Assembly (NCBI GenBank): GCA_032372955.1
Contig: GCA_032372955.1_4725.1
Source: Escherichia coli
GTDB lineage: Bacteria > Pseudomonadota > Gammaproteobacteria > Enterobacterales > Enterobacteriaceae
DNA length: 64,000 bases
Strand: one strand, 5' to 3'
In this document: in pieces, positions 19,837 through 29,182 of the stretch
Numbering within the stretch: the first letter of the stretch is position 1
How the letters are laid out: every line of letters starts with the position of its first letter
Translations under genes and position numbers: made by a program
The notes under the pieces: generated by a model
The model's input: the letters and a program-made list of their open reading frames with translations, nothing else
Database searches by the model: none
What the model was told of the DNA's origin: nothing

Positions 19837-19985
19837 CAGACGCCTGCGATGAATAAGGCATAGACAACACGTAAGGTCGTTCTCGCGCTAGGAACGATGC
19901 TGAAACCGTCGGCTGTCGGCTCGATAAGAACAAGAAAAGGGAAATGCGTTATGCGTGATAGTTTTCAATCAGATGGAGGTTGACG

Positions 19986-21422
19986 ATGCCCTCCATGCCA
20001 ATATGTGATACCGCGTTCGAACCGTGGGATGGTACGCACGCTTATCGCATTGACGGTTATGCTGAACCGTTATATGACCTGGAATTAGGATGGGCATGTA
20101 TTAATGAATCTGGCCATACCGTGTTGGTGATCACCTCCGACAATATGTTCCAGTACATTCCTGGTAGGGTTGAGGACGGCAATACATTCAGGATCGTACG
20201 ACGTTCAAAATTTCGTAGTCCTGTAATAGTTGACAGCCATGACGTATCTAATGCGAATGGTGCATTCAGAAACTTCGTCTACGCGGGTAGACGTCGGGAT
20301 ATACTCCGTGTTAAAAACGGCACAGGTTACGCGATAAGGAAACCGCATATCCGTCGTATTGTTAACACAGAGAAAATGCCGCGTCTACTAGACCAGCAAG
20401 ACTGGTACGATACGCTGGATGAAATATGTCAAATTGACCTCAACACGTTGAACTTTAATCAACCCGCATATGTCGCGCAAATCAACGTGGCAATCGTAAA
20501 AGTTAAAGGAGAATACAAAAGCGCAGACCACGTTACGAAAGGGATTGATCACCCCTACATCGCAACGTGCGCGCGGAGCTTGACGGGAAAAACAGAGGGT
20601 TTCCGAATTCTCGGAACGCAACTCACTATCCATTGGACGCCACCCGACTTTCATAATCCGTATAGCTTATGGGTTAACGTGTTAGGGAAAGCGTTCGAAA
20701 TAAAACCAACGAATGGAGCAGGCGCGCCAGGTATGTTGGTTACCTTCGGGAATAATGACTCCATCTTCGTACCGGTCGAAGATTTGGAAAAAGAGATGTG
20801 GAAGTACAATGTTTTTCCGACACGTGAATCGGCATTGCATTGGCGCGACCCCGTCCAAAAAGAAGCCTACAAAAATGATTTCGACCAACGTAGCTACGAA
20901 CGTAAGGCATCGGAAGAAACCCTTAAAGGGGTGATGGCTGAAATGCGACGTATGGCGGATGAACACAAGGCAGTTATCGCACAGATGCATGAGGCGCATC
21001 GCGCCGACGCAAAGCTGCGCGATGAACAACATAAAGCCGAACTCGATCAGCTTAAAGACGAACAAAAACGTAGGATGGAACAACACCAAGCCGAAATGAA
21101 ACGTCAAGATGATCTACGTAAACAAATACACGAAGATTATCAAGCTGATTTAAAACGTCGTGATGATGAGGCTAAACGCAAACATGAAGAATTCGTCGCT
21201 GAACTTCGTCGTCGAGATGAAGAATCCAAACGTAAGCACGACGAGTTTGCTGCTGAGATACGCCGACGTGATGAAGAGGCAAAAAGACAACGTGAAGCGG
21301 AAGAAGCGCGACGTCAACGTAACGTCGATGTTTGGAAAGCCGCTGCGAGTATAACTGCGGCCGTTGTCGGTATAGGTATGACCTTTTTCAAGATTCTTGA
21401 GAAGGCGTCATCGAAAAAGTAA
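19986..21422 (+). CDS. hypothetical protein with charged helical repeats and C-terminal transmembrane anchor
   Basis: Start chosen at ATG 19986 (GGAGG RBS). C-terminal ~130 aa is E/R/K-rich with tandem RRRDEEAKRKHEEF repeats, then hydrophobic AAASITAAVVGIGMTFF. Confidence 0.65.
   Translation: MPSMPICDTAFEPWDGTHAYRIDGYAEPLYDLELGWACINESGHTVLVITSDNMFQYIPGRVEDGNTFRIVRRSKFRSPVIVDSHDVSNANGAFRNFVYAGRRRDILRVKNGTGYAIRKPHIRRIVNTEKMPRLLDQQDWYDTLDEICQIDLNTLNFNQPAYVAQINVAIVKVKGEYKSADHVTKGIDHPYIATCARSLTGKTEGFRILGTQLTIHWTPPDFHNPYSLWVNVLGKAFEIKPTNGAGAPGMLVTFGNNDSIFVPVEDLEKEMWKYNVFPTRESALHWRDPVQKEAYKNDFDQRSYERKASEETLKGVMAEMRRMADEHKAVIAQMHEAHRADAKLRDEQHKAELDQLKDEQKRRMEQHQAEMKRQDDLRKQIHEDYQADLKRRDDEAKRKHEEFVAELRRRDEESKRKHDEFAAEIRRRDEEAKRQREAEEARRQRNVDVWKAAASITAAVVGIGMTFFKILEKASSKK
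21153..21314 (+). repeat. tandem ~54-nt (18-aa) coding repeats
   Basis: KRRDDEAKRKHEEFVAEL / RRRDEESKRKHDEFAAEI / RRRDEEAKRQREAEEARR read directly from the translation. Confidence 0.6.
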
Positions 21423-21461: not shown

Positions 21462-23258
21462 ATGGATCCTAGATTCTGCAAAGCTGTCGCTGAGCTTGCA
21501 CCGAAGATGAACGAGAAGATAGCACGCAACATCGTCGTCGATAAGATGCAAGATGTTGAGTCCTATGTTGATCGTCTTTGGCGGAACAGCAAAGATAGTT
21601 TACCTAAGGATCTGGTGTATCATGGCCTGCGTCGCTGCATGGCCCGCGAACAGTTCCACTACTTAAGCGGAGGAAAGAAAACCAAAGGGAAGGATAGCGG
21701 TAAGCTGACCTTCGACCTTGCGCCTTCCGATGTGTTTATGGTGATGCTGGAATTCCGCTGGTACGGCGCAATGGAATCAGGTGACCGTCGTGAACCAGGA
21801 AAGGACTACTGCATTATCCGACACCCTCTCCTATTGCCCGCGGTAGGTCAGGGTGGTAAAATGCGTCTACGTGGTGCGAACTTCATTCTCAGTGCGGTGC
21901 TCGCTGACCCTGTAATCAGTTACACGAAAGACATGGCGTTCATCATGCTTCCGCGTGACAAAATCACGGTTAAACGTACACCGTATCAGTTCCTGAGCAA
22001 TGATACACCGACCGGTATCGATTATCGTCATTACCTATCATTACCCTGGTCGCAAATCTATCATCTTACCAAACAAAGTAAAGTGAACGGTGACAACATC
22101 AACCACACCAGCGTAACCACACTGGGTCACTATCTCTTTGCGAAGTATGGGGTGGGTGAGTGTTTCCGACGTTTTGCAGGCGTCGAAGCCGTAACCGGAC
22201 GGAACCTTGCTGAACGTGATTTTCCGCGCGACCAATGGGTAATCTATCGCACCATGGGGGTTATTCCTAAAGGCTTTAGTATCAGCAAAAGCGGTAAAAG
22301 CCGTAGCGCTAGCGCTGTACGTTACAAGCATCCTGATATTCAAATTGCCGTAAGACGTGGAGGCACGGAACGTATTGTTCTTGGCCTTGTCGGCGCATTC
22401 TTGTATCTCATCGACCGTTATTACGATCGTTTTCCGGAAGACTATCCGGTTGAAGAGTTCGCGAATGCGCCAGACCATTGGCGTACATTACTCGGTTTGA
22501 TTATCTTTAATAACAACAATGCAGATGCGCGTTTGTTGCGTGATGTAAACCACCACATCGACAGTCTCGATCTTTACGTTGACGAGATTCAGCAGAAGAA
22601 GTTCAAACAGGAAAATATTCCTTGCGATGACTTCTACGAATTTATGGCGTATCTGATTGACAATGTTACTATCGAAATGAGTCGTGTTGATACCACGACG
22701 ATGTTCGGTAAGGAATTGATGGTGTTGGAATATGTCATGGAGGATGTGCGTAAGAGCATCTTTAAACTGGGGTTCCATCTTAAAACCACAGAACGTGGTA
22801 AACGACAGAACAACCGTAAAGAGATGACCAATCGCGATGTACAGAAGGCGTTGCGAAATCAAGTTGCGACGGAAGCGATTCTCAATATCCAGAGCAATCG
22901 TGATAAGCGTGAGAAAGTGGCAACATCGATTCAGTCACCTGGTGATTGCATGCTGTTCAAAGTGAGCACGCATGTTGTTCTCCAGAGCCAAAATGCAGGC
23001 GGTGCTGCATTGGCTGACGAGAGTCGTTTGGTTAGTGGTTCCATCCCGTTCTGTGCAAGCTATCTGAATCTTCCACACTCCGAACCAACCGGACGTCAGA
23101 AGTTCAGTATGTACGCACCTATCGACGAACGTGGTCGGTTAATCATTACCCCACAAATTGCAAATGACGTTGCAGCAACCAATGCAGGCTTGAAGAAAGA
23201 CGTCGGTCGATTCGATGAAGAAATTGTAGAAATTAACGATCACGACATAATCGATTGA
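21462..23258 (+). CDS. hypothetical protein
   Basis: Start chosen at ATG 21462 (AAAGGAG RBS, 6-nt spacer); 598 aa. Confidence 0.65.
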   Translation: MDPRFCKAVAELAPKMNEKIARNIVVDKMQDVESYVDRLWRNSKDSLPKDLVYHGLRRCMAREQFHYLSGGKKTKGKDSGKLTFDLAPSDVFMVMLEFRWYGAMESGDRREPGKDYCIIRHPLLLPAVGQGGKMRLRGANFILSAVLADPVISYTKDMAFIMLPRDKITVKRTPYQFLSNDTPTGIDYRHYLSLPWSQIYHLTKQSKVNGDNINHTSVTTLGHYLFAKYGVGECFRRFAGVEAVTGRNLAERDFPRDQWVIYRTMGVIPKGFSISKSGKSRSASAVRYKHPDIQIAVRRGGTERIVLGLVGAFLYLIDRYYDRFPEDYPVEEFANAPDHWRTLLGLIIFNNNNADARLLRDVNHHIDSLDLYVDEIQQKKFKQENIPCDDFYEFMAYLIDNVTIEMSRVDTTTMFGKELMVLEYVMEDVRKSIFKLGFHLKTTERGKRQNNRKEMTNRDVQKALRNQVATEAILNIQSNRDKREKVATSIQSPGDCMLFKVSTHVVLQSQNAGGAALADESRLVSGSIPFCASYLNLPHSEPTGRQKFSMYAPIDERGRLIITPQIANDVAATNAGLKKDVGRFDEEIVEINDHDIID

Positions 23259-23292
23259 CACATAACCGAATAAATAAAAAGGATCGTAAGAA

Positions 23293-25851
23293 ATGTATAA
23301 TGGCAGTAACAACATGTATCAACAAATGGGCTATAGCGAAAACCCTTATACGAGCACGGTTAATTATGCGGCTGAACAGGTTCGTCAGCAACAGTATCAG
23401 CAATCACCGTACGGCGCATATCCGAATAACGCCTATCAACCACCACAATACCAACAACCCTCATATCAGCAGAACTATAACTTCATCACCCAAGAAGCAA
23501 CGATCGTCAAAATCCGTCAAGCTATCTTTAATGTCCTGAAAGACTTCGCTCAGCAAGACAAAATACAAACCGAGTTCGTCGCACGTTATACCAATAACGA
23601 TATGATGATGGAATCGCTTGTTGAAGACTGTTGTTGGAACGTGTTCTCTTACATCAACCCGATGCCGCAGAACGCGTCCGACGACCAGATCGTCTCTGCT
23701 GCCGTGAGCACAGTTGCGCTGTATCATCTTGTAACGTGGCTCTTTGAACCGAATCAGTACCCGGAATATTATCGCGCGATTGAATTATCACGCATTAACC
23801 CGGAAGCCGCGAATAAGTACACGCAGCTGAATAAAAGCGGGAGCCTGGCACAAATCGCGCAGAAGTCACGTGGTTTGAAGCAGCAGGTGATGCAGATGGG
23901 GATGACTTATCGTGGCCCGCAAGCAAGCGCGATGGTTAGTGGCGGGTACGGTCAACCACAACAGCCAGCGTACGCCATGTATGGTGGAACCTATCCGCAA
24001 CCGCAATACCAGCCTAATCCGGCAGTTATGCGTGGTATGGCTCCAACAACGCCAGGATACGGCGCACAACCTCGGCCGACGGTTGTTCAACCACAAGCGC
24101 CATCGTACATCGATTCGAAGGATTGTGCGTTCAACCGTTTGTATGATGTTGGTGATGACGATCCTATCGTTGATGATGCACCTGCTGCTACAGCGCCGCG
24201 TTACGAGGCACCACAACCACGGATTTACTCGACAAATCCTGAAGGAGATATTGGTGGTATCAACGATATCTTTGCAGCGGCTGAACAGTTTGCTGAACAG
24301 TACGAAGAGCCAGAATGGCATGTTAAGGCTGGGCAGCAGAAACCCGTTCAACCTGAACCTGCGCAGGTGAAACCGGAACCCGTTCGTACGGCTCGTTCTG
24401 CTACGGTAACAAAGACCGTTAATCCAATTGATGCGACCGAAGATGCTAAGCGTTACGGTCGTGTTGTTCAACATGAAGAATTTATGCAGATGCGTCTGAA
24501 AGCCAAAGACTTTGCACCTAATAGTCGTTGGCCGACGTTGTATGACTTCAGACACTTCGCTCGTCGGGCACGTATCGACGAAAACGGAATTCTTCATGAA
24601 ACCATTGTTGACATTACATCCCTCACGGAGGAAGAAGTGGAATACATCGAACTTGAATCAGATCCAACCGCTCGTCGTATGGCAGAGCAGGAAATGGCAA
24701 AACTGGATCGTATCGCGCAAGCAGAAGTTGTTCGTGTTAGCCTTAACAAACCGGTTCAGCGTGAGCCAATCGTTGTCGGTGAGCAGCGCGAAATGAAACT
24801 GTTTACCGTCACCGACGCGATCGCAGCGTCAAGCGTTGAGGATGCTGAAACCAAAGCTGCGGTAGCGATCATCCAGCAGACCAACACCGACGTCAACCAA
24901 AACGACGCATTAGCATTCCTGGCTACCGTCAATTCCTATCTGGGAACCTATACCGACAAAGAGCTAGATGCAATCCATGAATTCCTGGATGCGTTGTCTA
25001 TTGATAAGGGTCGTAGCGACGATATCAAAGCTTATCGTCAGATCATGCAACAGTATCGTGATGTCATTCCTCTGCGTATTTGGCATTTCCTGAACGATAG
25101 CATGACCAAAGACGTTAACAAGCTGATCAAACGTATCGTACCGAAGAACTTCTCTGAAACCACCATCTCTAGCTTCGTTGATGATATCGGAGAACTGTCC
25201 GGTTGGCTGATTCACGATCTTAAAATGGACCAGAAGTTCATTGAAGATGAATTCTCCAATTGCTACTACACCTGGGTCAACATGCTGAAGTGTCTCTACT
25301 GCAATCGCGATGGCGAAGGTCAGTGGAACATTCGTCTTTCCATGGCTGAACTGTACAACATGCATGACTACCTGAAAGCCGCTCACGAAAAATCTGCAGC
25401 GAATCGTGAACGTCATCTGGTTGCCATGAGTGAGTATCGTGCAGAACTGGAGAAAGATGGCTCTCTGGATGCTGACGAAATCGAACGTCGTTTGGCGGAT
25501 GCGGCTATCGAGGATATGCGTGTTAATCCAGACATCGTTACCGACGAAGATAGCAACGATGCTTACTGGTTCAATCACAGCGTATTCGCGATGCGTCCGC
25601 ATGTTGTTGTTCGCGTACCGACCAACGCCAAGATTCTGAAGCTGAACCAGAGCGGTTACACTCACGCATCGGCTGCAACCAACCCAAGCATTGCTCGTAT
25701 GCTGGATCAGGTGTTCAAGACCTTCGAAACCAAAGTAAAAGGTCTGCAATCTGTTACTGTAATTCTGAGCGATGATACTCGTCTGAAAGCAGTACGTACG
25801 GTAAACGGTATTACCGCTTCCGAGTATCTGCTGGAACGTGAAGAGCAGTAA
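23293..25851 (+). CDS. hypothetical protein with Q/Y/P/G-rich low-complexity regions
   Basis: 852-aa ORF, AAAGGA RBS; N-terminal ~65 aa and residues ~190-270 are Q/Y/P/N/G-rich. Confidence 0.7.
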   Translation: MYNGSNNMYQQMGYSENPYTSTVNYAAEQVRQQQYQQSPYGAYPNNAYQPPQYQQPSYQQNYNFITQEATIVKIRQAIFNVLKDFAQQDKIQTEFVARYTNNDMMMESLVEDCCWNVFSYINPMPQNASDDQIVSAAVSTVALYHLVTWLFEPNQYPEYYRAIELSRINPEAANKYTQLNKSGSLAQIAQKSRGLKQQVMQMGMTYRGPQASAMVSGGYGQPQQPAYAMYGGTYPQPQYQPNPAVMRGMAPTTPGYGAQPRPTVVQPQAPSYIDSKDCAFNRLYDVGDDDPIVDDAPAATAPRYEAPQPRIYSTNPEGDIGGINDIFAAAEQFAEQYEEPEWHVKAGQQKPVQPEPAQVKPEPVRTARSATVTKTVNPIDATEDAKRYGRVVQHEEFMQMRLKAKDFAPNSRWPTLYDFRHFARRARIDENGILHETIVDITSLTEEEVEYIELESDPTARRMAEQEMAKLDRIAQAEVVRVSLNKPVQREPIVVGEQREMKLFTVTDAIAASSVEDAETKAAVAIIQQTNTDVNQNDALAFLATVNSYLGTYTDKELDAIHEFLDALSIDKGRSDDIKAYRQIMQQYRDVIPLRIWHFLNDSMTKDVNKLIKRIVPKNFSETTISSFVDDIGELSGWLIHDLKMDQKFIEDEFSNCYYTWVNMLKCLYCNRDGEGQWNIRLSMAELYNMHDYLKAAHEKSAANRERHLVAMSEYRAELEKDGSLDADEIERRLADAAIEDMRVNPDIVTDEDSNDAYWFNHSVFAMRPHVVVRVPTNAKILKLNQSGYTHASAATNPSIARMLDQVFKTFETKVKGLQSVTVILSDDTRLKAVRTVNGITASEYLLEREEQ

Positions 25852-25912: not shown

Positions 25913-26185
25913 ATGAGTCAATATAAACTCATTACCGTCTCTGTGGATGCAAAGGACTTACGCGAAATTACGTTAGCAGCCAACGCAGTTCAACAGGACA
26001 GTGAACTGACGGCATATGAACGTTACCAGCTTTTCCTCTCGATAAGCGACACGGTAGCACGTATGCAACAGAAGTACCAGGTTCAGCTAACCGTAATCGA
26101 CAAAGGCGCTGTGATCCCACCACACCCTAGTTGGCGCGTACTGAGAAGCAAACTCACCACAATTGAATCGTGGTTAACCTCGTAA
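25913..26185 (+). CDS. hypothetical protein
   Basis: 90-aa ORF with AAGGAAA RBS. Confidence 0.5.
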   Translation: MSQYKLITVSVDAKDLREITLAANAVQQDSELTAYERYQLFLSISDTVARMQQKYQVQLTVIDKGAVIPPHPSWRVLRSKLTTIESWLTS

Positions 26186-26272: not shown

Positions 26273-29182
26273 TTAGACAATGTCACCTGAAGTATCGTCT
26301 TCTGACGTTGTGTCGGTCGTCGTATCCTCAGATGTGGTTGTTTCTTCTGTTGAGGTTTCCTCCATCGTTTCGGTATCGAAATCGGTATCTCCGAAATCGT
26401 CACCGCCACCGAAGTCATCAGAAGAACCGGTATCGCTACTTGAATCGGATGACCAAGAACCATCAGATGAAACGCTGCCGTCCTGTGCTTGAGCTCCCAT
26501 CTTCTCTTCAATCTTCTTCGTCAGATTCTGAATATACAATGCAAAATCACCCATGCATTTACCCATGACTTCAATATGTTCCATGGACATACGTTTCCAA
26601 TCTTGCACGGCATTCTTCTTATCGTCAAGACTGAAGAGATCAGCCAACTCCTGATTGAAGTTGTTCTCTTTTGCCCACGTACGCATTGCGGTACCAATAA
26701 TGCATGCGCGGATCATCTGCAGTGTTGTTTCATCAACACCGCCCAGACCCATGACGTAATCAGGTGTTAAATAATCATCAAGTTGCGCAGTAATCGCTTC
26801 CTTGTACTGATTATATTCACGTACCTGATCTTCAAGGCGACGAGCATTGCTATCCGGTAAATGCACACTCAGGCTGTTTAAGAACATGGATACATAAGCA
26901 TCGGCAATAACTTCCTGGACTTCTGGTTTAGTGTAATCCAGATCCATTGTTGCTGATTGGTCGTCAATCTCCTGATAAGCGTTAACGTTACGGATAACAC
27001 CGTTTTCGAAATCGCTACCAAAAAGCTGCTGCAATTGTGCCTGGGAGAGCTTAGACATGTTCGCACGAACCGTGTTTCGTAACGACGTCAACAACACGGG
27101 ACTGTATGCCGTGTATTTCTTGATGTGGTCCGATAACCCATTCGTGATCACCTCGCGACAAACCGTGAACTGTTTCTCTTGCATCGCGTTAGCTGTAATC
27201 ACAGAAGCTGCGAATTCAGATTGGTAGGAAGTATCGATAATCTCCGGAGAAACGCCCAAGCCCATGAAATGGTCACGACGGTAACGATCCATCAGCTCAT
27301 TATCAGGAGACTGATAGTTACGCTGCTCAACACTGACGTCTGTATTCAATTTTGGGAAGCGTGGGTTATTCCCCTCAACCTTCAATCGAATCGAGCTTCG
27401 TTCATACGCGTTGATGATATCCATCGGGTTAGTTTCACCCAACGGGAAACCAGACTGGTAGACACGAGCGAAACTATGCAGTGCTTGTTCGACGGTATCG
27501 ACCGGGTTTCTGTCGGTGTCTTCAAGCATTACGCTTAGCGTCGTATAGTTCAACGAACTTTTGATTTTTGCCATCAGTTCTTGAACCATGAGCATGGCTC
27601 GTTGCGACGAGATCATCTTCGTACTTTCAAGCAGCGAACGACCGATACCGTATTTGTTGTATTCATAGGCGATGTAAGTCACCATTTCACGAGGAATAAA
27701 CAAAACACGGGTCTGTTTATGGGCCAAGCTACGAGCAAGCATCGACAGATAAAACGATGATGTCGCACCGATCTCCACCGCACTGCCAAGATAACCGTTG
27801 ACAATACGTTCAACGATGTAGCGTTGCATCAGCGATTCGTACGATGATACGAAGGCCGACATGTCTACCTGATTACATGACGTACCTTGGATCATGTTCT
27901 TGGCTGCACCAATCATCTCGCTCGCCATGCCGTTGCTTGAAGTCCCTGCGATATCTGCAGTGATCTTCGACAACCGACCTTCCAACTGCTTGTAATACGC
28001 CGCATCTTCAACCAAACGTACTGGATAACCAAACTCATCCAACTGAACCAAATACCCGATATGGTTCTCCGGATCACCTGGTGCGTGTACGGGTTCTAAT
28101 GCCTCAGGTGGTACGTGCATCACACCAGGATGACCGACACTTTGACGATCGAGCGTATCTGGGGTTGCCAACGCGTAAACCGGCGATACCTTGGTGTGAC
28201 GCTGGATGTTGAGTTTATTCCAGATCTCGTTAACCTGTTCTTGCGTCAGCTCACGTCGGTTAGCGGTTAGGGTTGGGTCACCTGACAGTGTTACCAAACC
28301 ACTACCACCTAACGTGTTCGCACGTAACGCACGTTGTACCGCGGTCGCTGCTCGACGTTGATGTAGAATAGGCATGCGGAGGATGTCTGGGTTATCGACA
28401 ACCGTAACCATATCCGGAATATCGATCTTCGCTTCAATGAATTTACCGTCCTTATCACGAAGCAGGGTATTGGTAAACTTAATGCTGTCTATGCGAACAA
28501 CAGGATCGTACGGTATGGTTTCATTAACGCCTGAGAAATAATCTTCCATCGAAACCGTCGCAGGTAATTGATTTTCGTGGCGTTTGCGACTGTCGTTACC
28601 TAGAAGCCCCCAACTTGCAAAATGGTTGTCTTTAAATCCGTATTCTTCAAGTTTCAGTTGACCGTTACCATTAATGGCGCGGTCGAGCGTGCTTTCTGGC
28701 AGAACAACGAAGTTATAACTGCCCTTGATAAAGAAGACGTCTTCGATGATACGAGGGATAAGCGTCTTTATTTTATAGATATTCTTAAAATGCGTGTCGA
28801 TGGTATCGATCATCGGCTGAACGATTTCTGCGACTCTGCCGGGGAAATCTTCGCTGTCGATAAACATCTCGACCGTCTTAAGATCGTTAGGGTTCGTCAA
28901 CGCGGCAACATAGATCTGCATCACGCGTTTAAGTTCAGGGAACAACTCGAGGATGTTTTTATTATCCTCGATGTTTGTCGCGGTCGCACGCGTAACCGTG
29001 TTCATCGTCATTTGGTCGGGAACAACTAACCCGAAACGACCGCTCGCTCCTTCCGCATCACGTGTATTATAAAGACGTGACTGCGGAGCAGGAGCGACAA
29101 ATTTGTTCATGAGTGCCTTCGCAACGTCATTATTACTCATTTGACGTTCGAGGGCGACGCGCCCTTTATTTATATCGTTCAT
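26273..29182 (-). CDS. large hypothetical protein with acidic Ser/Thr/Asp-rich C-terminal tail (portal-like size; unverified)
   Basis: 969-aa ORF, AAGGAG RBS 9 nt upstream; C-terminal ~65 aa extremely acidic. Portal assignment is a size-based guess only. Confidence 0.6.
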   Translation of the reverse strand: MNDINKGRVALERQMSNNDVAKALMNKFVAPAPQSRLYNTRDAEGASGRFGLVVPDQMTMNTVTRATATNIEDNKNILELFPELKRVMQIYVAALTNPNDLKTVEMFIDSEDFPGRVAEIVQPMIDTIDTHFKNIYKIKTLIPRIIEDVFFIKGSYNFVVLPESTLDRAINGNGQLKLEEYGFKDNHFASWGLLGNDSRKRHENQLPATVSMEDYFSGVNETIPYDPVVRIDSIKFTNTLLRDKDGKFIEAKIDIPDMVTVVDNPDILRMPILHQRRAATAVQRALRANTLGGSGLVTLSGDPTLTANRRELTQEQVNEIWNKLNIQRHTKVSPVYALATPDTLDRQSVGHPGVMHVPPEALEPVHAPGDPENHIGYLVQLDEFGYPVRLVEDAAYYKQLEGRLSKITADIAGTSSNGMASEMIGAAKNMIQGTSCNQVDMSAFVSSYESLMQRYIVERIVNGYLGSAVEIGATSSFYLSMLARSLAHKQTRVLFIPREMVTYIAYEYNKYGIGRSLLESTKMISSQRAMLMVQELMAKIKSSLNYTTLSVMLEDTDRNPVDTVEQALHSFARVYQSGFPLGETNPMDIINAYERSSIRLKVEGNNPRFPKLNTDVSVEQRNYQSPDNELMDRYRRDHFMGLGVSPEIIDTSYQSEFAASVITANAMQEKQFTVCREVITNGLSDHIKKYTAYSPVLLTSLRNTVRANMSKLSQAQLQQLFGSDFENGVIRNVNAYQEIDDQSATMDLDYTKPEVQEVIADAYVSMFLNSLSVHLPDSNARRLEDQVREYNQYKEAITAQLDDYLTPDYVMGLGGVDETTLQMIRACIIGTAMRTWAKENNFNQELADLFSLDDKKNAVQDWKRMSMEHIEVMGKCMGDFALYIQNLTKKIEEKMGAQAQDGSVSSDGSWSSDSSSDTGSSDDFGGGDDFGDTDFDTETMEETSTEETTTSEDTTTDTTSEDDTSGDIV

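What the first reader, a model, noticed from the sequence alone, without database searches (positions are those of the whole stretch)
23293..24130. Prion-like Q/Y/P/G-rich low-complexity regions in an 852-aa phage protein
The N-terminal ~65 aa (…QQMGYSENPYTS…QQQYQQSPYGAYPNNAYQPPQYQQPSYQQNYNF) and residues ~190-270 (…GGYGQPQQPAYAMYGGTYPQPQYQPNPAVMRGMAPTTPGYGAQP…) resemble eukaryotic prion-like / phase-separating domains, which are rare in phage proteins. In a large phage this could mediate condensate formation or multivalent binding; that is speculation.
Basis: partly seen in the sequence, partly recalled or inferred. Interest (0 to 1): 0.55.

Follow-up and report, generated by a model that had tools for sequence, protein, structure and literature searches.

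The report
Low-complexity arms of phage JADA protein
The Q/Y/P/G-rich stretches are real and belong to the Goslar-lineage version of JADA, an essential early protein of nucleus-forming jumbo phages whose molecular function is unknown; comparison of about 80 relatives shows the floppy, sticky-looking segment is a conserved family trait, which gives a testable clue to how JADA works.

Summary
**Observation:** confirmed. ORF 23293-25851 (+) encodes 852 aa with two uncharged low-complexity regions: LCR1 (aa 1-64) and LCR2 (aa 201-272). It is the outlier among 43 ORFs in the window.

**Identity:** the window is 97.4% identical to E. coli phage Goslar, and the protein is Goslar gp038. It is not an orphan. 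Synteny, iterative profiles, profile-profile alignment and a Foldseek hit to PDB 9RP3 place it in the JADA family (PhiKZ gp124 / Pa36 gp316). JADA is essential, early and abundant, localises to the early-infection (EPI) vesicle, and triggers Avs5. Its own function is unknown.

**Anatomy:** LCR2 is JADA's disordered inter-domain linker. LCR1 is an N-terminal extension present in only some clades.

**New here:**
- 57 of 76 unique family members have a Q/G/P/N-rich linker almost free of K, E, D, L and I.
- Aromatic or Met residues in these linkers are spaced more evenly than chance (p = 1e-5).
- About a fifth of lineages carry Arg-rich RD/RGG tracts instead.
- In the Goslar genome only ChmC has a comparable tract.

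**Interpretation:** the layout fits a sticker-and-spacer segment giving weak multivalent association. Condensate formation is inferred, not shown, and the strict prion (Q/N) criterion is not met.

The parts
23293..25851 (+). Complete ORF, 852 aa. Goslar-lineage orthologue of JADA (Goslar gp038 = PhiKZ gp124 = Pa36 gp316 = RAY gp4).
   Evidence: ORF listing. 99.1% aa identity to Goslar gp038. Family membership. Independent published orthologue table.
23278..23283 (+). Shine-Dalgarno-like AAAGGA, 9 nt upstream of the ATG.
   Evidence: Sequence read directly and conserved in the L008 relative.
23293..23484 (+). LCR1, aa 1-64. A Q/Y/N/P-rich N-terminal extension with 12 Tyr at a spacing of about 5 and almost no charge.
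   Evidence: Composition and aromatic spacing, CV 0.37 vs 0.79 in shuffles, p = 0.003. pLDDT 25-37. In-frame indels among relatives. Present in only some clades.
23485..23892 (+). N-terminal helical domain, aa 65-200. The homology-supported core is aa 70-156.
   Evidence: AF2 predicts helices with pLDDT 55-73. hhalign against the rest of the family gives probability 95.4%, E = 1.7e-8.
23893..24108 (+). LCR2, aa 201-272. A P/Q/G/Y/A/M-rich, acid-free inter-domain linker, equivalent to JADA's 'disordered linker'.
   Evidence: Composition. pLDDT 23-25. 86% identity to the 80%-identical relative, as conserved as the folded domains. Position-conserved low complexity across the family.
24109..24387 (+). 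Acidic, P/A-rich disordered segment, aa 273-365. It contains a predicted amphipathic helix (aa 324-333, within DIGGINDIFAAAEQFAEQYEEPEW) and an internal YDVGDDDPIV motif.
   Evidence: 19 acidic and 8 basic residues. Helix H324-333 in the AF2 model. Similar motifs seen by eye in P0005, RAY gp4 and Eowyn gp146.
24388..25848 (+). C-terminal domain, aa 366-852, homologous to the JADA C-terminal dimerisation and Avs5-activating domain (PDB 9RP3).
   Evidence: Iterative HMM search reaches 82 of 82 syntenic ORFs with 0 false hits. hhalign probability 99.45%, E = 4.6e-22. In Foldseek against the PDB the only significant hits are 9rp3_B and 9rp3_A, E = 8.5e-5 and 2.2e-4.
21462..23258 (+). Upstream neighbour: non-virion RNA polymerase beta subunit (Goslar gp039 / PhiKZ gp123 family). 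This is the conserved synteny anchor of JADA.
   Evidence: phrog_2943 match, E = 7e-120. Annotated as nvRNAP beta subunit in RAY.
26273..29182 (-). Downstream neighbour: portal protein (Goslar gp036).
   Evidence: phrog_3004 match. Goslar cryo-EM preprint names gp36 as the portal.

Best explanation
**What it is.** The 852-aa ORF is the Goslar-lineage orthologue of JADA. JADA is the essential, early and abundant Chimalliviridae protein that gathers at the early-phage-infection (EPI) vesicle and is sensed by the bacterial Avs5 defence system.

**Domain order.** LCR1 (N-terminal tail), then a helical N-domain, then LCR2 (inter-domain linker), then an acidic disordered stretch, then the C-terminal domain, which is dimeric in the solved orthologue.

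**How the LCRs most likely work.** Both LCRs are intrinsically disordered 'sticker-and-spacer' segments. Tyr stickers (in other clades Trp, Phe or Met) sit at even intervals in an uncharged Q/G/P/N spacer.

Most likely they do not serve only as a passive tether. They probably provide weak, multivalent, cohesive contacts. A dimer would carry four such arms in the Goslar lineage. These contacts would help concentrate JADA, and whatever its folded domains bind, at the infection site during early phage gene expression.

**Status of each step.**
- Shown here: the identity of the protein, the domain map, the disorder prediction, and family-wide conservation of composition and patterning.
- Taken from papers: essentiality, early abundance, focus formation at EPI vesicles, and the transcription phenotype.
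- Inferred: that the LCRs mediate self- or hetero-association or condensation.

**Confidence by layer.** About 0.95 for identity, about 0.9 for disorder, and about 0.4 for a cohesive or multivalent role.
For: **Identity.**
- 97.4% nt identity to Goslar, 99.1% aa identity to gp038.
- Directly downstream of, and co-directional with, the nvRNAP beta subunit. PMC12931631 describes this position as invariant for JADA.
- An HMM search seeded only with Goslar-clade C-domains converges on 82 of 82 syntenic ORFs and on none of about 1000 other ORFs.
- hhalign of the Goslar clade against the rest of the family gives 99.45% for the C-domain and 95.4% for the N-domain.
- Foldseek of the AF2 C-domain model returns only 9RP3 (JADA) as a significant hit among 350,542 chains.
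- The Prichard 2023 orthologue table lists Goslar gp038 = RAY gp4 = PhiKZ gp124.
- 9RP3 is PhiKZ gp124 apart from one residue.

**Disorder.**
- pLDDT is 23-34 over aa 1-59 and 202-365.
- In the orthologue, the linker and N-terminal region are invisible in cryo-EM.

**Selection on composition and pattern.**
- 57 of 76 unique members have a window of at least 60% QNYPGSM upstream of the C-domain. 48 of 76 exceed the maximum seen in 500 background ORFs.
- Relative to the C-domains, pooled linker windows have K at x0.02, E at x0.07, D at x0.14 and L at x0.13, but Q at x5.7 and G at x3.3.
- Aromatic residues are more evenly spaced than in shuffles in 22 of 25 lineages (Wilcoxon p = 1e-5). Adjacent aromatic pairs number 6 against 17.7 expected.
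- Sticker identity swaps between clades (GWG, GFG, GFNQGG, QGYQAP, Met-rich) while the pattern is kept.
- LCR2 is as conserved as the folded domains among close relatives (86% vs 75-85%), and shows 14 synonymous against 3 non-synonymous codon changes relative to Goslar.
- LCR1 is a terminal tail, so it cannot be a mere linker, and similar tails occur in several clades.
- Arg is preferred over Lys in linkers (7.7% vs 2.2%), unlike the C-domain (5.2% vs 5.6%).

**Context.**
- JADA is diffuse before infection and forms foci at EPI vesicles afterwards.
- PhiKZ124 knock-down strongly perturbs phage transcription.
- The only other protein in Goslar with a comparable tract is ChmC. Its disordered tail is required for condensates in vitro in the PhiPA3 orthologue.
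Against: - There is no direct evidence of self-association or phase separation for any JADA.
- The PhiKZ-type JADA is diffuse when expressed alone. Any condensation therefore needs an infection-specific partner, or does not occur.
- The C-domain alone is enough to activate Avs5, so at least that property does not need the LCRs.
- About a fifth of lineages replace the uncharged tract with highly charged RD/RGG tracts, and the sister lineage P0005 lacks LCR1. The exact chemistry is therefore not essential, and a generic 'long flexible spacer' requirement could explain part of the conservation.
- For LCR2 of this protein alone, even aromatic spacing is not significant (p = 0.18).
- Even spacing can be a by-product of ancient short-repeat expansion.
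- The AF2 models are low-confidence overall (mean pLDDT 39.6 and 59.4), and the Foldseek match has a low TM-score (0.23-0.27).
Confidence: 0.55

Rival explanations
1. The LCRs are passive entropic tethers. They are needed only to keep the N-domain and the dimeric C-domain flexibly connected at some distance, and their composition merely reflects what is tolerated in a soluble, protease-resistant spacer.
For: - The JADA paper describes the region simply as a long disordered or flexible linker, and the C-domain alone activates Avs5.
- Linker chemistry differs radically between clades, from uncharged polar to Arg/Asp-rich, as expected if only length and flexibility matter.
- Linker sequences cannot be aligned across clades.
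Against: - LCR1 is a terminal tail that links nothing, yet it has the same composition and recurs in several clades.
- A passive spacer would not be expected to exclude K, E and D almost completely or to prefer Arg over Lys.
- It would not be expected to space aromatic residues more evenly than chance.
- It would not be expected to be as conserved as the folded domains among close relatives.
Confidence: 0.3
2. The tracts are nucleic-acid-associated low-complexity regions. They help JADA bind or co-condense with phage mRNA or DNA emerging at the EPI vesicle, in the manner of RGG/PLD regions of eukaryotic RNA-binding proteins and of phage ChmC.
For: - The alternative linker flavour in about 9 of 45 lineages is RGG/RD-rich, a classical RNA-binding composition.
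- Arg is retained and Lys excluded even in the uncharged flavour.
- The authors suggested from modelling that the JADA C-domain binds DNA, and JADA foci lie next to DAPI-stained DNA.
- Knock-down alters phage transcript levels.
- ChmC is a precedent.
Against: - LCR1 and LCR2 of this protein carry only 1 and 3 basic residues and are followed by an acidic stretch, so direct nucleic-acid binding by these tracts is unlikely in the Goslar lineage.
- No experimental nucleic-acid binding is reported for JADA.
Confidence: 0.2
3. LCR2 plus the following acidic motif mimics the intrinsically disordered linker and acidic tip of bacterial SSB. JADA would use this mimicry to recruit or sequester host SSB-interacting proteins such as the DnaX-complex chi subunit.
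For: - 'GGYGQPQQP' in LCR2 and the downstream 'YDVGDDDPIV' resemble E. coli SSB 'GGWGQPQQP ... MDFDDDIPF'. The SSB sequence was verified against PDB 1EQQ.
- A secondary citation states that PhiKZ gp124 was found bound to host DnaX/FtsZ complexes.
Against: - The acidic motif is internal (aa 284-293), not a free C-terminus, which established knowledge says SSB-tip recognition needs.
- An acidic segment after the LCR is not conserved across the family. Net charge of that region ranges from -16 to +6.
- The DnaX claim is second-hand and concerns a different orthologue.
- The composition match is generic to G/Q/P-rich disordered regions.
Confidence: 0.07
4. The protein is a packaged virion or ejection protein, and the LCRs act inside the capsid or during ejection, for example as an extended, easily threaded segment.
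For: - Goslar gp038 was detected in CsCl-purified virions: 26 peptides, 28% coverage, an estimated 17-39 copies.
- The gene lies in a block containing the major capsid protein and the portal.
Against: - The same preparation contains chimallin and PhuZ at more than 100 estimated copies, so 25 copies is within the carry-over range.
- It was not modelled in the virion structure.
- PhiKZ gp124 carries no structural-protein note in the record.
- It is described as newly synthesised, early and abundant.
Confidence: 0.07
5. The tracts are bona fide prion or amyloid-forming domains.
For: Q/N/Y-rich, charge-poor composition.
Against: - The maximum Q+N is 26 per 80 aa, below the classical threshold of 30.
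- Pro makes up 9% of LCR1 and 18% of LCR2.
- Aromatic residues are evenly spaced, a pattern that established work on prion-like domains associates with liquid rather than amyloid states.
Confidence: 0.03

Closest known systems
[quoted passage not shown]
   Same: - Same gene slot directly downstream of the nvRNAP beta subunit.
- Same three-part layout: N-domain, long disordered linker, C-domain.
- Both folded domains are homologous at profile level, and the C-domain model finds only 9RP3.
   Different: - About 16% identity to PhiKZ gp124 in the C-domain.
- 852 aa against 721 aa.
- The Goslar lineage adds a 64-aa Tyr/Gln-rich N-terminal tail and has a more Tyr-rich linker followed by a strongly acidic stretch.
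- Essentiality, EPI-vesicle localisation, dimerisation and Avs5 activation have not been tested for the Goslar protein.
- The paper does not discuss the linker's composition, patterning or any condensate role. The terms 'low complexity', 'phase separation' and 'condensate' are absent from its text.
ChmC (PhiPA3 gp61 / Goslar gp176), the chimallivirus RNA-binding protein with an N/G-rich disordered tail (PMC11077065)
   Same: - Same phage family.
- An oligomeric folded module plus an uncharged polar low-complexity segment followed by an acidic cluster.
- ChmC and gp038 are the only two Goslar proteins with such tracts.
- The ChmC tail is required for condensates in vitro.
   Different: - Unrelated fold: Whirly tetramer against the novel JADA fold.
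- The ChmC tract is N/G-rich with few aromatics, about 40 aa long and C-terminal.
- JADA's tracts are Q/P/G/Y-rich, 64 and 72 aa long, and N-terminal and internal.
Eukaryotic prion-like / FET-family low-complexity domains (FUS, EWS, TAF15, hnRNPA1). This comparison rests on established knowledge, not on a tool result.
   Same: - Uncharged G/Q/S/N/P spacers with evenly spaced Tyr (GYG and YQQ motifs).
- Arg favoured over Lys.
- Predicted disorder.
- Attached to an oligomeric or nucleic-acid-associated module.
   Different: - Much shorter (64 and 72 aa against roughly 150-250 aa).
- Richer in Pro.
- Bacterial-virus context.
- No demonstrated phase separation.
- No evolutionary relationship.
E. 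coli SSB intrinsically disordered linker plus acidic tip (PDB 1EQQ residues 113-178)
   Same: A G/Q/P-rich uncharged linker after a folded oligomeric domain, with the near-identical peptide GG[WY]GQPQQP and a downstream D-rich motif.
   Different: - The acidic motif is internal, not C-terminal.
- There is no OB fold.
- The similarity is compositional and is not conserved across the JADA family.

Membership tests
JADA family (PhiKZ gp124 / Pa36 gp316) | Gene lies immediately downstream of, and is co-directional with, the nvRNAP beta subunit (PhiKZ gp123 family). | tested here: met
   Window 21462-23258 (phrog_2943, E = 7e-120) is followed 35 nt later by the ORF. The same order is seen in Goslar, RAY, Eowyn, PhiKZ and 80 IMG/VR loci.
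JADA family (PhiKZ gp124 / Pa36 gp316) | C-terminal domain homologous to the JADA C-domain solved in PDB 9RP3. | tested here: met
   - Goslar-seeded iterative HMM search reaches PhiKZ gp124 and all 82 syntenic ORFs, with no other ORFs.
- hhalign against the rest of the family: probability 99.45%, E = 4.6e-22 over 338 columns.
- hhalign against PhiKZ gp124 alone: probability 75%, E = 2.6e-5.
- The A3 profile hit to 9RP3 is by construction, because A3 contains PhiKZ gp124, and is not counted.
JADA family (PhiKZ gp124 / Pa36 gp316) | Same three-dimensional fold as 9RP3. | tested here: inconclusive
   In Foldseek against 350,542 PDB chains, only 9rp3_B and 9rp3_A are significant (E = 8.5e-5 and 2.2e-4, probability 1.00). 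However, the TM-score is 0.23-0.27 because the AF2 model is only moderately confident (mean pLDDT 59.4, pTM 0.35).
JADA family (PhiKZ gp124 / Pa36 gp316) | N-terminal helical domain homologous to the JADA N-domain. | tested here: met
   hhalign aligns aa 70-156 to the rest of the family with probability 95.4%, E = 1.7e-8. AF2 predicts a helical bundle with pLDDT 55-73. A direct iterative search from the Goslar seed alone failed.
JADA family (PhiKZ gp124 / Pa36 gp316) | Long disordered region between the two domains. | tested here: met
   aa 202-365 have pLDDT 23-33 with almost no secondary structure.
JADA family (PhiKZ gp124 / Pa36 gp316) | C-domain homodimer; early, abundant, essential; localises to the EPI vesicle; activates Avs5. 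| not testable with these tools
   Experimental properties reported for Pa36 and PhiKZ only.
Classical Q/N-rich prion domain | At least 30 Q+N in an 80-residue window (Michelitsch-Weissman criterion, from established knowledge). | tested here: not met
   The maximum is 26 Q+N per 80 aa, at aa 3-82.
Classical Q/N-rich prion domain | PLAAC/HMM prion-like score; self-propagating amyloid. | not tested
   No PLAAC tool was available, and amyloid behaviour is experimental.
Sticker-and-spacer prion-like low-complexity domain (FUS/hnRNPA1 type) | Uncharged polar/Gly spacers, depleted in charged and aliphatic residues, and predicted disordered. | tested here: met
   LCR1 has 3 charged residues in 64 and LCR2 has 3 in 72, with no I or L in either. 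pLDDT is below 35.
Sticker-and-spacer prion-like low-complexity domain (FUS/hnRNPA1 type) | Aromatic residues spaced more uniformly than random. | tested here: met
   LCR1: CV of gaps 0.37 against 0.79 in shuffles, p = 0.003. Family linkers: 22 of 25 lineages have z below 0, Wilcoxon p = 1e-5. LCR2 alone is not significant, p = 0.18.
Sticker-and-spacer prion-like low-complexity domain (FUS/hnRNPA1 type) | Drives phase separation or higher-order assembly. | not testable with these tools
   Requires in-vitro or in-cell experiments.
SSB-type disordered linker plus acidic tip | Acidic, aromatic-ended motif at the extreme C-terminus. | tested here: not met
   YDVGDDDPIV lies at aa 284-293 of 852, while the protein ends ...EYLLEREEQ. 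SSB tail verified.

The most novel reading that the evidence does not exclude
JADA's low-complexity arms build a selective, liquid-like hub on the cytoplasmic face of the early-infection vesicle.

Two interchangeable chemistries are found across the family: an aromatic/Gln/Gly 'prion-like' flavour and an Arg-rich mixed-charge flavour. The hub would concentrate the newly made non-virion RNA polymerase, mRNA or nucleus-building factors, and so organise the hand-over from vesicle to phage nucleus.

This would be a bacterial-virus counterpart of eukaryotic transcriptional or nuclear-pore-type condensates. It would also explain why Avs5 surveys exactly this spot.
Probability: 0.2. Interest if true: 0.8.

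Novelty: new member of a known kind. Interest (0 to 1): 0.5.

Why it matters
JADA is one of the few phage proteins known to be essential at the most vulnerable step of nucleus-forming jumbo-phage infection, and it is the trigger of a dedicated bacterial immune sensor. Its own molecular function is still unknown.

This analysis shows that its 'disordered linker' is a position-conserved, composition-constrained, evenly patterned low-complexity element. It comes in two chemical flavours, and some clades duplicate it as an N-terminal tail. What had been treated as a structural blank becomes a concrete hypothesis, multivalent assembly at the EPI vesicle, that can be tested by mutation.

The analysis also shows that the family is present in every chimallivirus locus sampled. 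Earlier BLAST-level surveys left it out of the 'core genome', and a later functional screen listed it as non-core.

For the window itself, the practical result is an annotation: the 'hypothetical protein' gp038 orthologue is JADA.

Tried and rejected
- **Pfam and PHROGs on the 852-aa protein.** Only a sub-threshold Cas9_C_2 match (E = 0.0019, 18.4 bits against a cut-off of 27), and in the family scan only the window sequence matched that family. Rejected as chance.
- **Literature search 'Goslar gp38'.** The hit concerns PhiKZ gp38, an unrelated protein.
- **Full-length word-index homology search.** Returned only four close relatives, because the search was swamped by low-complexity words.
- **Exhaustive HMMER with the C-domain.** Only one further cluster, P0005. 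This at first suggested an orphan, a view later overturned by synteny and profiles.
- **Profile query A3 in the word-index search.** One hit only.
- **Iterative N-domain search from the Goslar seed.** Failed. Resolved by profile-profile alignment.
- **Full-length AF2 with 7 sequences.** The C-domain was not usable. A second run with 23 sequences was moderately better.
- **The A3 profile hit to 9RP3.** Recognised as circular because A3 contains PhiKZ gp124. It was used only as the pointer to the paper.
- **DNA tandem repeats as the origin of the tracts.** None found.
- **Virion-protein reading.** Down-weighted because chimallin and PhuZ contaminate the same MS preparation. The stored peptide table is truncated, so coverage of the N-terminal half could not be established.
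- **SSB-tail mimicry.** Kept only as a weak rival, because the acidic motif is internal and not conserved.
- **One loosely specified literature search.** Returned only generic condensate papers.


Full report
**1.

The window carries an 852-aa ORF at 23293-25851 (+). The finding's span, 23293-24130, covers aa 1-280.

Two low-complexity regions stand out:
- LCR1 (aa 1-64) has the composition Q14 Y12 N9 P6 S5, only three charged residues, and thirteen aromatic residues at a spacing of about five.
- LCR2 (aa 201-272) has the composition P13 Q11 G10 Y8 A8 M6, no acidic residues and three arginines.
- An acidic, P/A-rich stretch follows at aa 273-365.

Neither the Q/N/Y/P/G/S maximum (0.78 in 60 aa) nor the Q+Y maximum (0.43) was reached in 2000 shuffles of the protein. 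Among 43 ORFs of the window the next best values are 0.58 and 0.25.

The tract is translated:
- An AAAGGA Shine-Dalgarno motif lies 9 nt upstream of the ATG.
- The LCR1 indels between relatives are 3, 36 and 3 nt, so the frame is preserved.

No DNA tandem repeat underlies the tracts.

**2. What the protein is**

The window is 97.4% identical to Escherichia phage Goslar, a nucleus-forming jumbo phage (Chimalliviridae). The ORF is the orthologue of Goslar gp038, annotated 'hypothetical protein', at 99.1% aa identity. It lies between the non-virion RNA polymerase beta subunit (gp039) and the portal (gp036).

Sequence searches at first suggested an orphan:
- No Pfam or PHROG family matched.
- Only four close relatives were found.
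- An exhaustive HMMER search against 1.84 billion representatives added one relative at 38% identity. It sits in the same gene order.

Synteny changed the picture. RAY gp4, Eowyn gp146 and PhiKZ gp124 occupy the same slot, have similar sizes, and are themselves full of Q/Y/P/M/G-rich sequence.

I fetched 80 further chimallivirus loci using the nvRNAP gene as an anchor. The evidence for one family is as follows:
- An HMM search seeded only with Goslar-clade C-terminal domains converged on all 82 syntenic downstream ORFs. It hit no other ORF among 1100, apart from Goslar itself and one displaced copy.
- Profile-profile alignment of the Goslar clade against all other members gave 99.45% probability (E = 4.6e-22, 338 columns) for the C-domain.
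- The same test gave 95.4% (E = 1.7e-8) for the N-domain, aligning aa 70-156.
- A published orthologue table independently lists Goslar gp038 = RAY gp4 = PhiKZ gp124.

A profile search of PDB sequences pointed to entry 9RP3, 'Gp316/JADA'. That hit is circular, because the profile contained PhiKZ gp124, and I used it only as a pointer. 9RP3 differs from PhiKZ gp124 by one residue.

A second AF2 run on the window's C-domain used a 23-sequence alignment (mean pLDDT 59.4). Searched against 350,542 PDB chains, its only significant matches were the two 9RP3 chains (E = 8.5e-5 and 2.2e-4). The TM-score was low, 0.23-0.27, so the fold test is supportive but not conclusive.

**3. What is known about JADA**

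Muralidharan et al. (Mol Cell 2026, PMC12931631) named Pa36 gp316 'Jumbo phage Avs5 Defense Activator'. Their main points:
[quoted passage not shown] - The N-terminal part is invisible in cryo-EM.
- The protein is diffuse before infection and forms foci at early-phage-infection vesicles afterwards.
- The C-domain alone triggers the Avs5 Sir2 NADase.
- Its molecular function is unknown, and a role in early transcription is suggested.

An antisense screen found that PhiKZ124 depletion lowers phage yield and ChmA levels and strongly perturbs phage transcription at 30 min.

The JADA paper's text never mentions low complexity, phase separation or condensates. In the searchable library the only chimallivirus paper linked to phase separation concerns ChmC.

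**4. Mapping the finding onto JADA**

LCR2 is JADA's inter-domain linker. LCR1 is an N-terminal tail placed in front of the N-domain. Full-length AF2 gives pLDDT 23-34 for aa 1-59 and 202-365, against 55-73 for the helical N-domain.

**5. What the family comparison adds**

*Prevalence.* Among 76 unique members, the most Q/N/Y/P/G/S/M-rich 60-aa window upstream of the C-domain has a median of 0.73.
- 57 of 76 reach 0.60 or more.
- 48 of 76 exceed the maximum (0.65) seen in 500 background ORFs from the same loci, whose median is 0.45.
- In most members the window sits at residues 120-200, just after the N-domain.

*Composition.* Relative to the C-domains, the pooled linker windows are enriched and depleted as follows:

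| Residue | Fold change |
|---|---|
| Q | x5.7 |
| G | x3.3 |
| P | x2.6 |
| N | x2.1 |
| M | x1.9 |
| W | x1.8 |
| Y | x1.7 |
| R | x0.63 |
| I | x0.17 |
| D | x0.14 |
| L | x0.13 |
| E | x0.07 |
| K | x0.02 |

*Pattern.* The sequences cannot be aligned across clades, but the pattern persists while the aromatic residue changes. Examples are GWG repeats, GFG/QGFG repeats, GFNQGG, QGYQAP, Met-rich tracts, and Tyr-rich tracts in Goslar and Eowyn.

*Spacing.* Aromatic residues are spaced more evenly than in shuffles in 22 of 25 lineages (mean z = -0.99, Wilcoxon p = 1e-5). Adjacent aromatic pairs number 6 against 17.7 expected. For this protein, LCR1 is significant (p = 0.003) and LCR2 is not (p = 0.18).

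*Conservation among close relatives.* LCR2 is as conserved as the folded domains (86% identity against 75-85%). Relative to Goslar it shows 14 synonymous and 3 non-synonymous codon changes.

*N-terminal tails.* Tails of the same composition occur in several clades: Goslar, the L025-L032 group, the RAY and L048/L057 group, and others. They are absent from Goslar's sister lineage.

*The 'LCR-poor' clades.* These are not free of low complexity. They carry Arg-rich mixed-charge RD/RGG linkers instead. Among 45 representatives, 27 are uncharged polar/aromatic, 9 are Arg-rich mixed-charge and 9 are intermediate. Lys is avoided in all (K 2.2% and R 7.7% in linkers, against 5.6% and 5.2% in C-domains).

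*Rarity in the genome.* Across the Goslar genome only gp038 and ChmC (gp176) have a 40-aa window that is at least 80% Q/N/Y/P/G/S/M. The ChmC tail is required for condensates in vitro in the PhiPA3 orthologue.

**6. Mechanism**

The best-supported reading is that the LCRs are disordered sticker-and-spacer elements under selection for composition and patterning. They would give the dimeric protein several weakly cohesive arms. These arms would help it accumulate, with partners, at the infection site during early gene expression.

The evidence stands at three levels:
- Identity, domain map, predicted disorder and comparative signatures are shown here.
- Focus formation, essentiality and the transcription phenotype come from papers on orthologues.
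- The link between the LCRs and assembly is inferred.

Several observations count against this reading:
- The PhiKZ-type protein is diffuse when expressed alone.
- Avs5 activation needs only the C-domain.
- Linker chemistry is interchangeable between clades.
- Even spacing could be a relic of ancient repeat expansion.

The main rival is a passive tether. It is weakened by four observations: the terminal position of LCR1, the near-total exclusion of K, E and D, the Arg-over-Lys bias, and the conservation among close relatives.

The other readings rank lower:
- A nucleic-acid-associated role is plausible for the RGG/RD flavour. It is unlikely for the nearly charge-free Goslar tracts.
- An SSB-tail mimic is suggested by GGYGQPQQP...YDVGDDDPIV against SSB GGWGQPQQP...MDFDDDIPF, and by a second-hand report of DnaX association. 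However, the acidic motif is internal and is not conserved.
- A virion role is suggested by about 25 estimated copies in virion MS. The same preparation contains chimallin and PhuZ at more than 100 copies.
- A true prion domain is unlikely. Q+N is 26 per 80 aa, Pro content is high, and the aromatics are evenly spaced.

**7. Novelty and score**

The protein family, its synteny and the existence of a disordered linker are already published. The Goslar-lineage protein is a new, divergent member, at about 16% identity to the solved orthologue, with an extra N-terminal tail.

As far as the searchable literature shows, the following are new:
- The compositional and patterning analysis of the linker across the family, including its two flavours.
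- The parallel with ChmC.
- The finding that the family is present in every sampled locus. It is missing from the 2023 core-gene list and was labelled non-core in the antisense screen.

This gives a concrete handle on an open question, namely what JADA does. It is an inference from sequence, not a demonstration.

Interest is 0.5. The most novel reading not excluded is an LCR-built hub on the EPI vesicle that organises early expression and the hand-over to the nucleus. I give it a probability of about 0.2 and an interest of 0.8 if true.

Noticed in passing
window 23893-24108 (LCR2) compared with Goslar L001:8894-9109: Codon differences between the window and Goslar are concentrated in LCR2. There, 17 of 72 codons differ (14 synonymous), against 33 of 487 in the C-domain and 7 of 136 in the N-domain. 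This is roughly three-fold higher local synonymous divergence. It could be a recombination patch, a mutational hot spot or relaxed codon constraint.
   Followed up: no
window 19980-21422 (+): This is the orthologue of Goslar gp040 / PhiKZ gp122 (core gene cg35). Its C-terminal third consists of E/K/R/D-rich near-repeats (RRDDEAKRKHEEFVAELRRRDEESKRKHDEFAAEIRRRDEEAKRQ). It ends in a hydrophobic stretch (VWKAAASITAAVVGIGMTFFKIL) that looks like a tail anchor. PhiKZ122 knock-down, like PhiKZ124 knock-down, strongly perturbs phage transcription at 30 min. The gp122-gp123-gp124 block may therefore act together.
   Followed up: no
window 26273-26480 (-), the C-terminus of the portal: The portal ends in an S/T/D/E-rich acidic low-complexity tail of about 65 aa (...SSDGSWSSDSSSDTGSSDDFGGGDDFGDTDFDTETMEETSTEETTTSEDTTTDTTSEDDTSGDIV). 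It has the lowest sequence entropy in the window.
   Followed up: no
Goslar NC_048170 156216-157496 (gp173; outside the window): The C-terminus carries 'WPGMGMQPAGWGMPPAPQSPNG', a Met/Gly/Trp/Pro tract resembling JADA linkers of other clades (L042, L043). The gene lies near ChmC (gp176). It is a possible partner with a matching low-complexity pattern.
   Followed up: no
P0007, P0012, P0015-P0017: These JADA-family proteins are annotated as hypothetical proteins of Caballeronia or Paraburkholderia isolates. Several lie on contigs of about 280 kb (P0012, P0015, P0016), while P0007 is on a 144-kb contig and P0017 on a 14-kb contig. They are most likely jumbo-phage genomes carried along in bacterial isolate assemblies.
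   Followed up: no
L006-L085 and Prichard 2023 supplementary tables: The JADA family is absent from the published 72-gene chimallivirus core list, which goes from cg36 straight to cg37. It was listed as 'non-core' in the antisense screen. Yet it is present at the syntenic position in all 82 loci where a downstream ORF could be read. It appears to be a core gene hidden by extreme divergence.
   Followed up: partly
L039, L045, L055, L061, L063, L064, L078, L083, L085 (inter-domain regions): In these lineages the JADA linker is an Arg/Asp/Gly-rich mixed-charge tract with RD, RGG and RDY repeats, for example RYDRDDRYSDRHEENRRIRNYDDRYSRNRDYRDRDDRYDRRYERDRYERR. This is the chemical opposite of the uncharged Goslar-type linker, but it occupies the same position.
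   Followed up: partly
window 25913-26185 (+): A small 90-aa ORF (Goslar gp037) lies between JADA and the portal. A small ORF occupies the same place in RAY (gp5), in the L002 contig and in PhiKZ (gp125). Homology between them was not tested.
   Followed up: no
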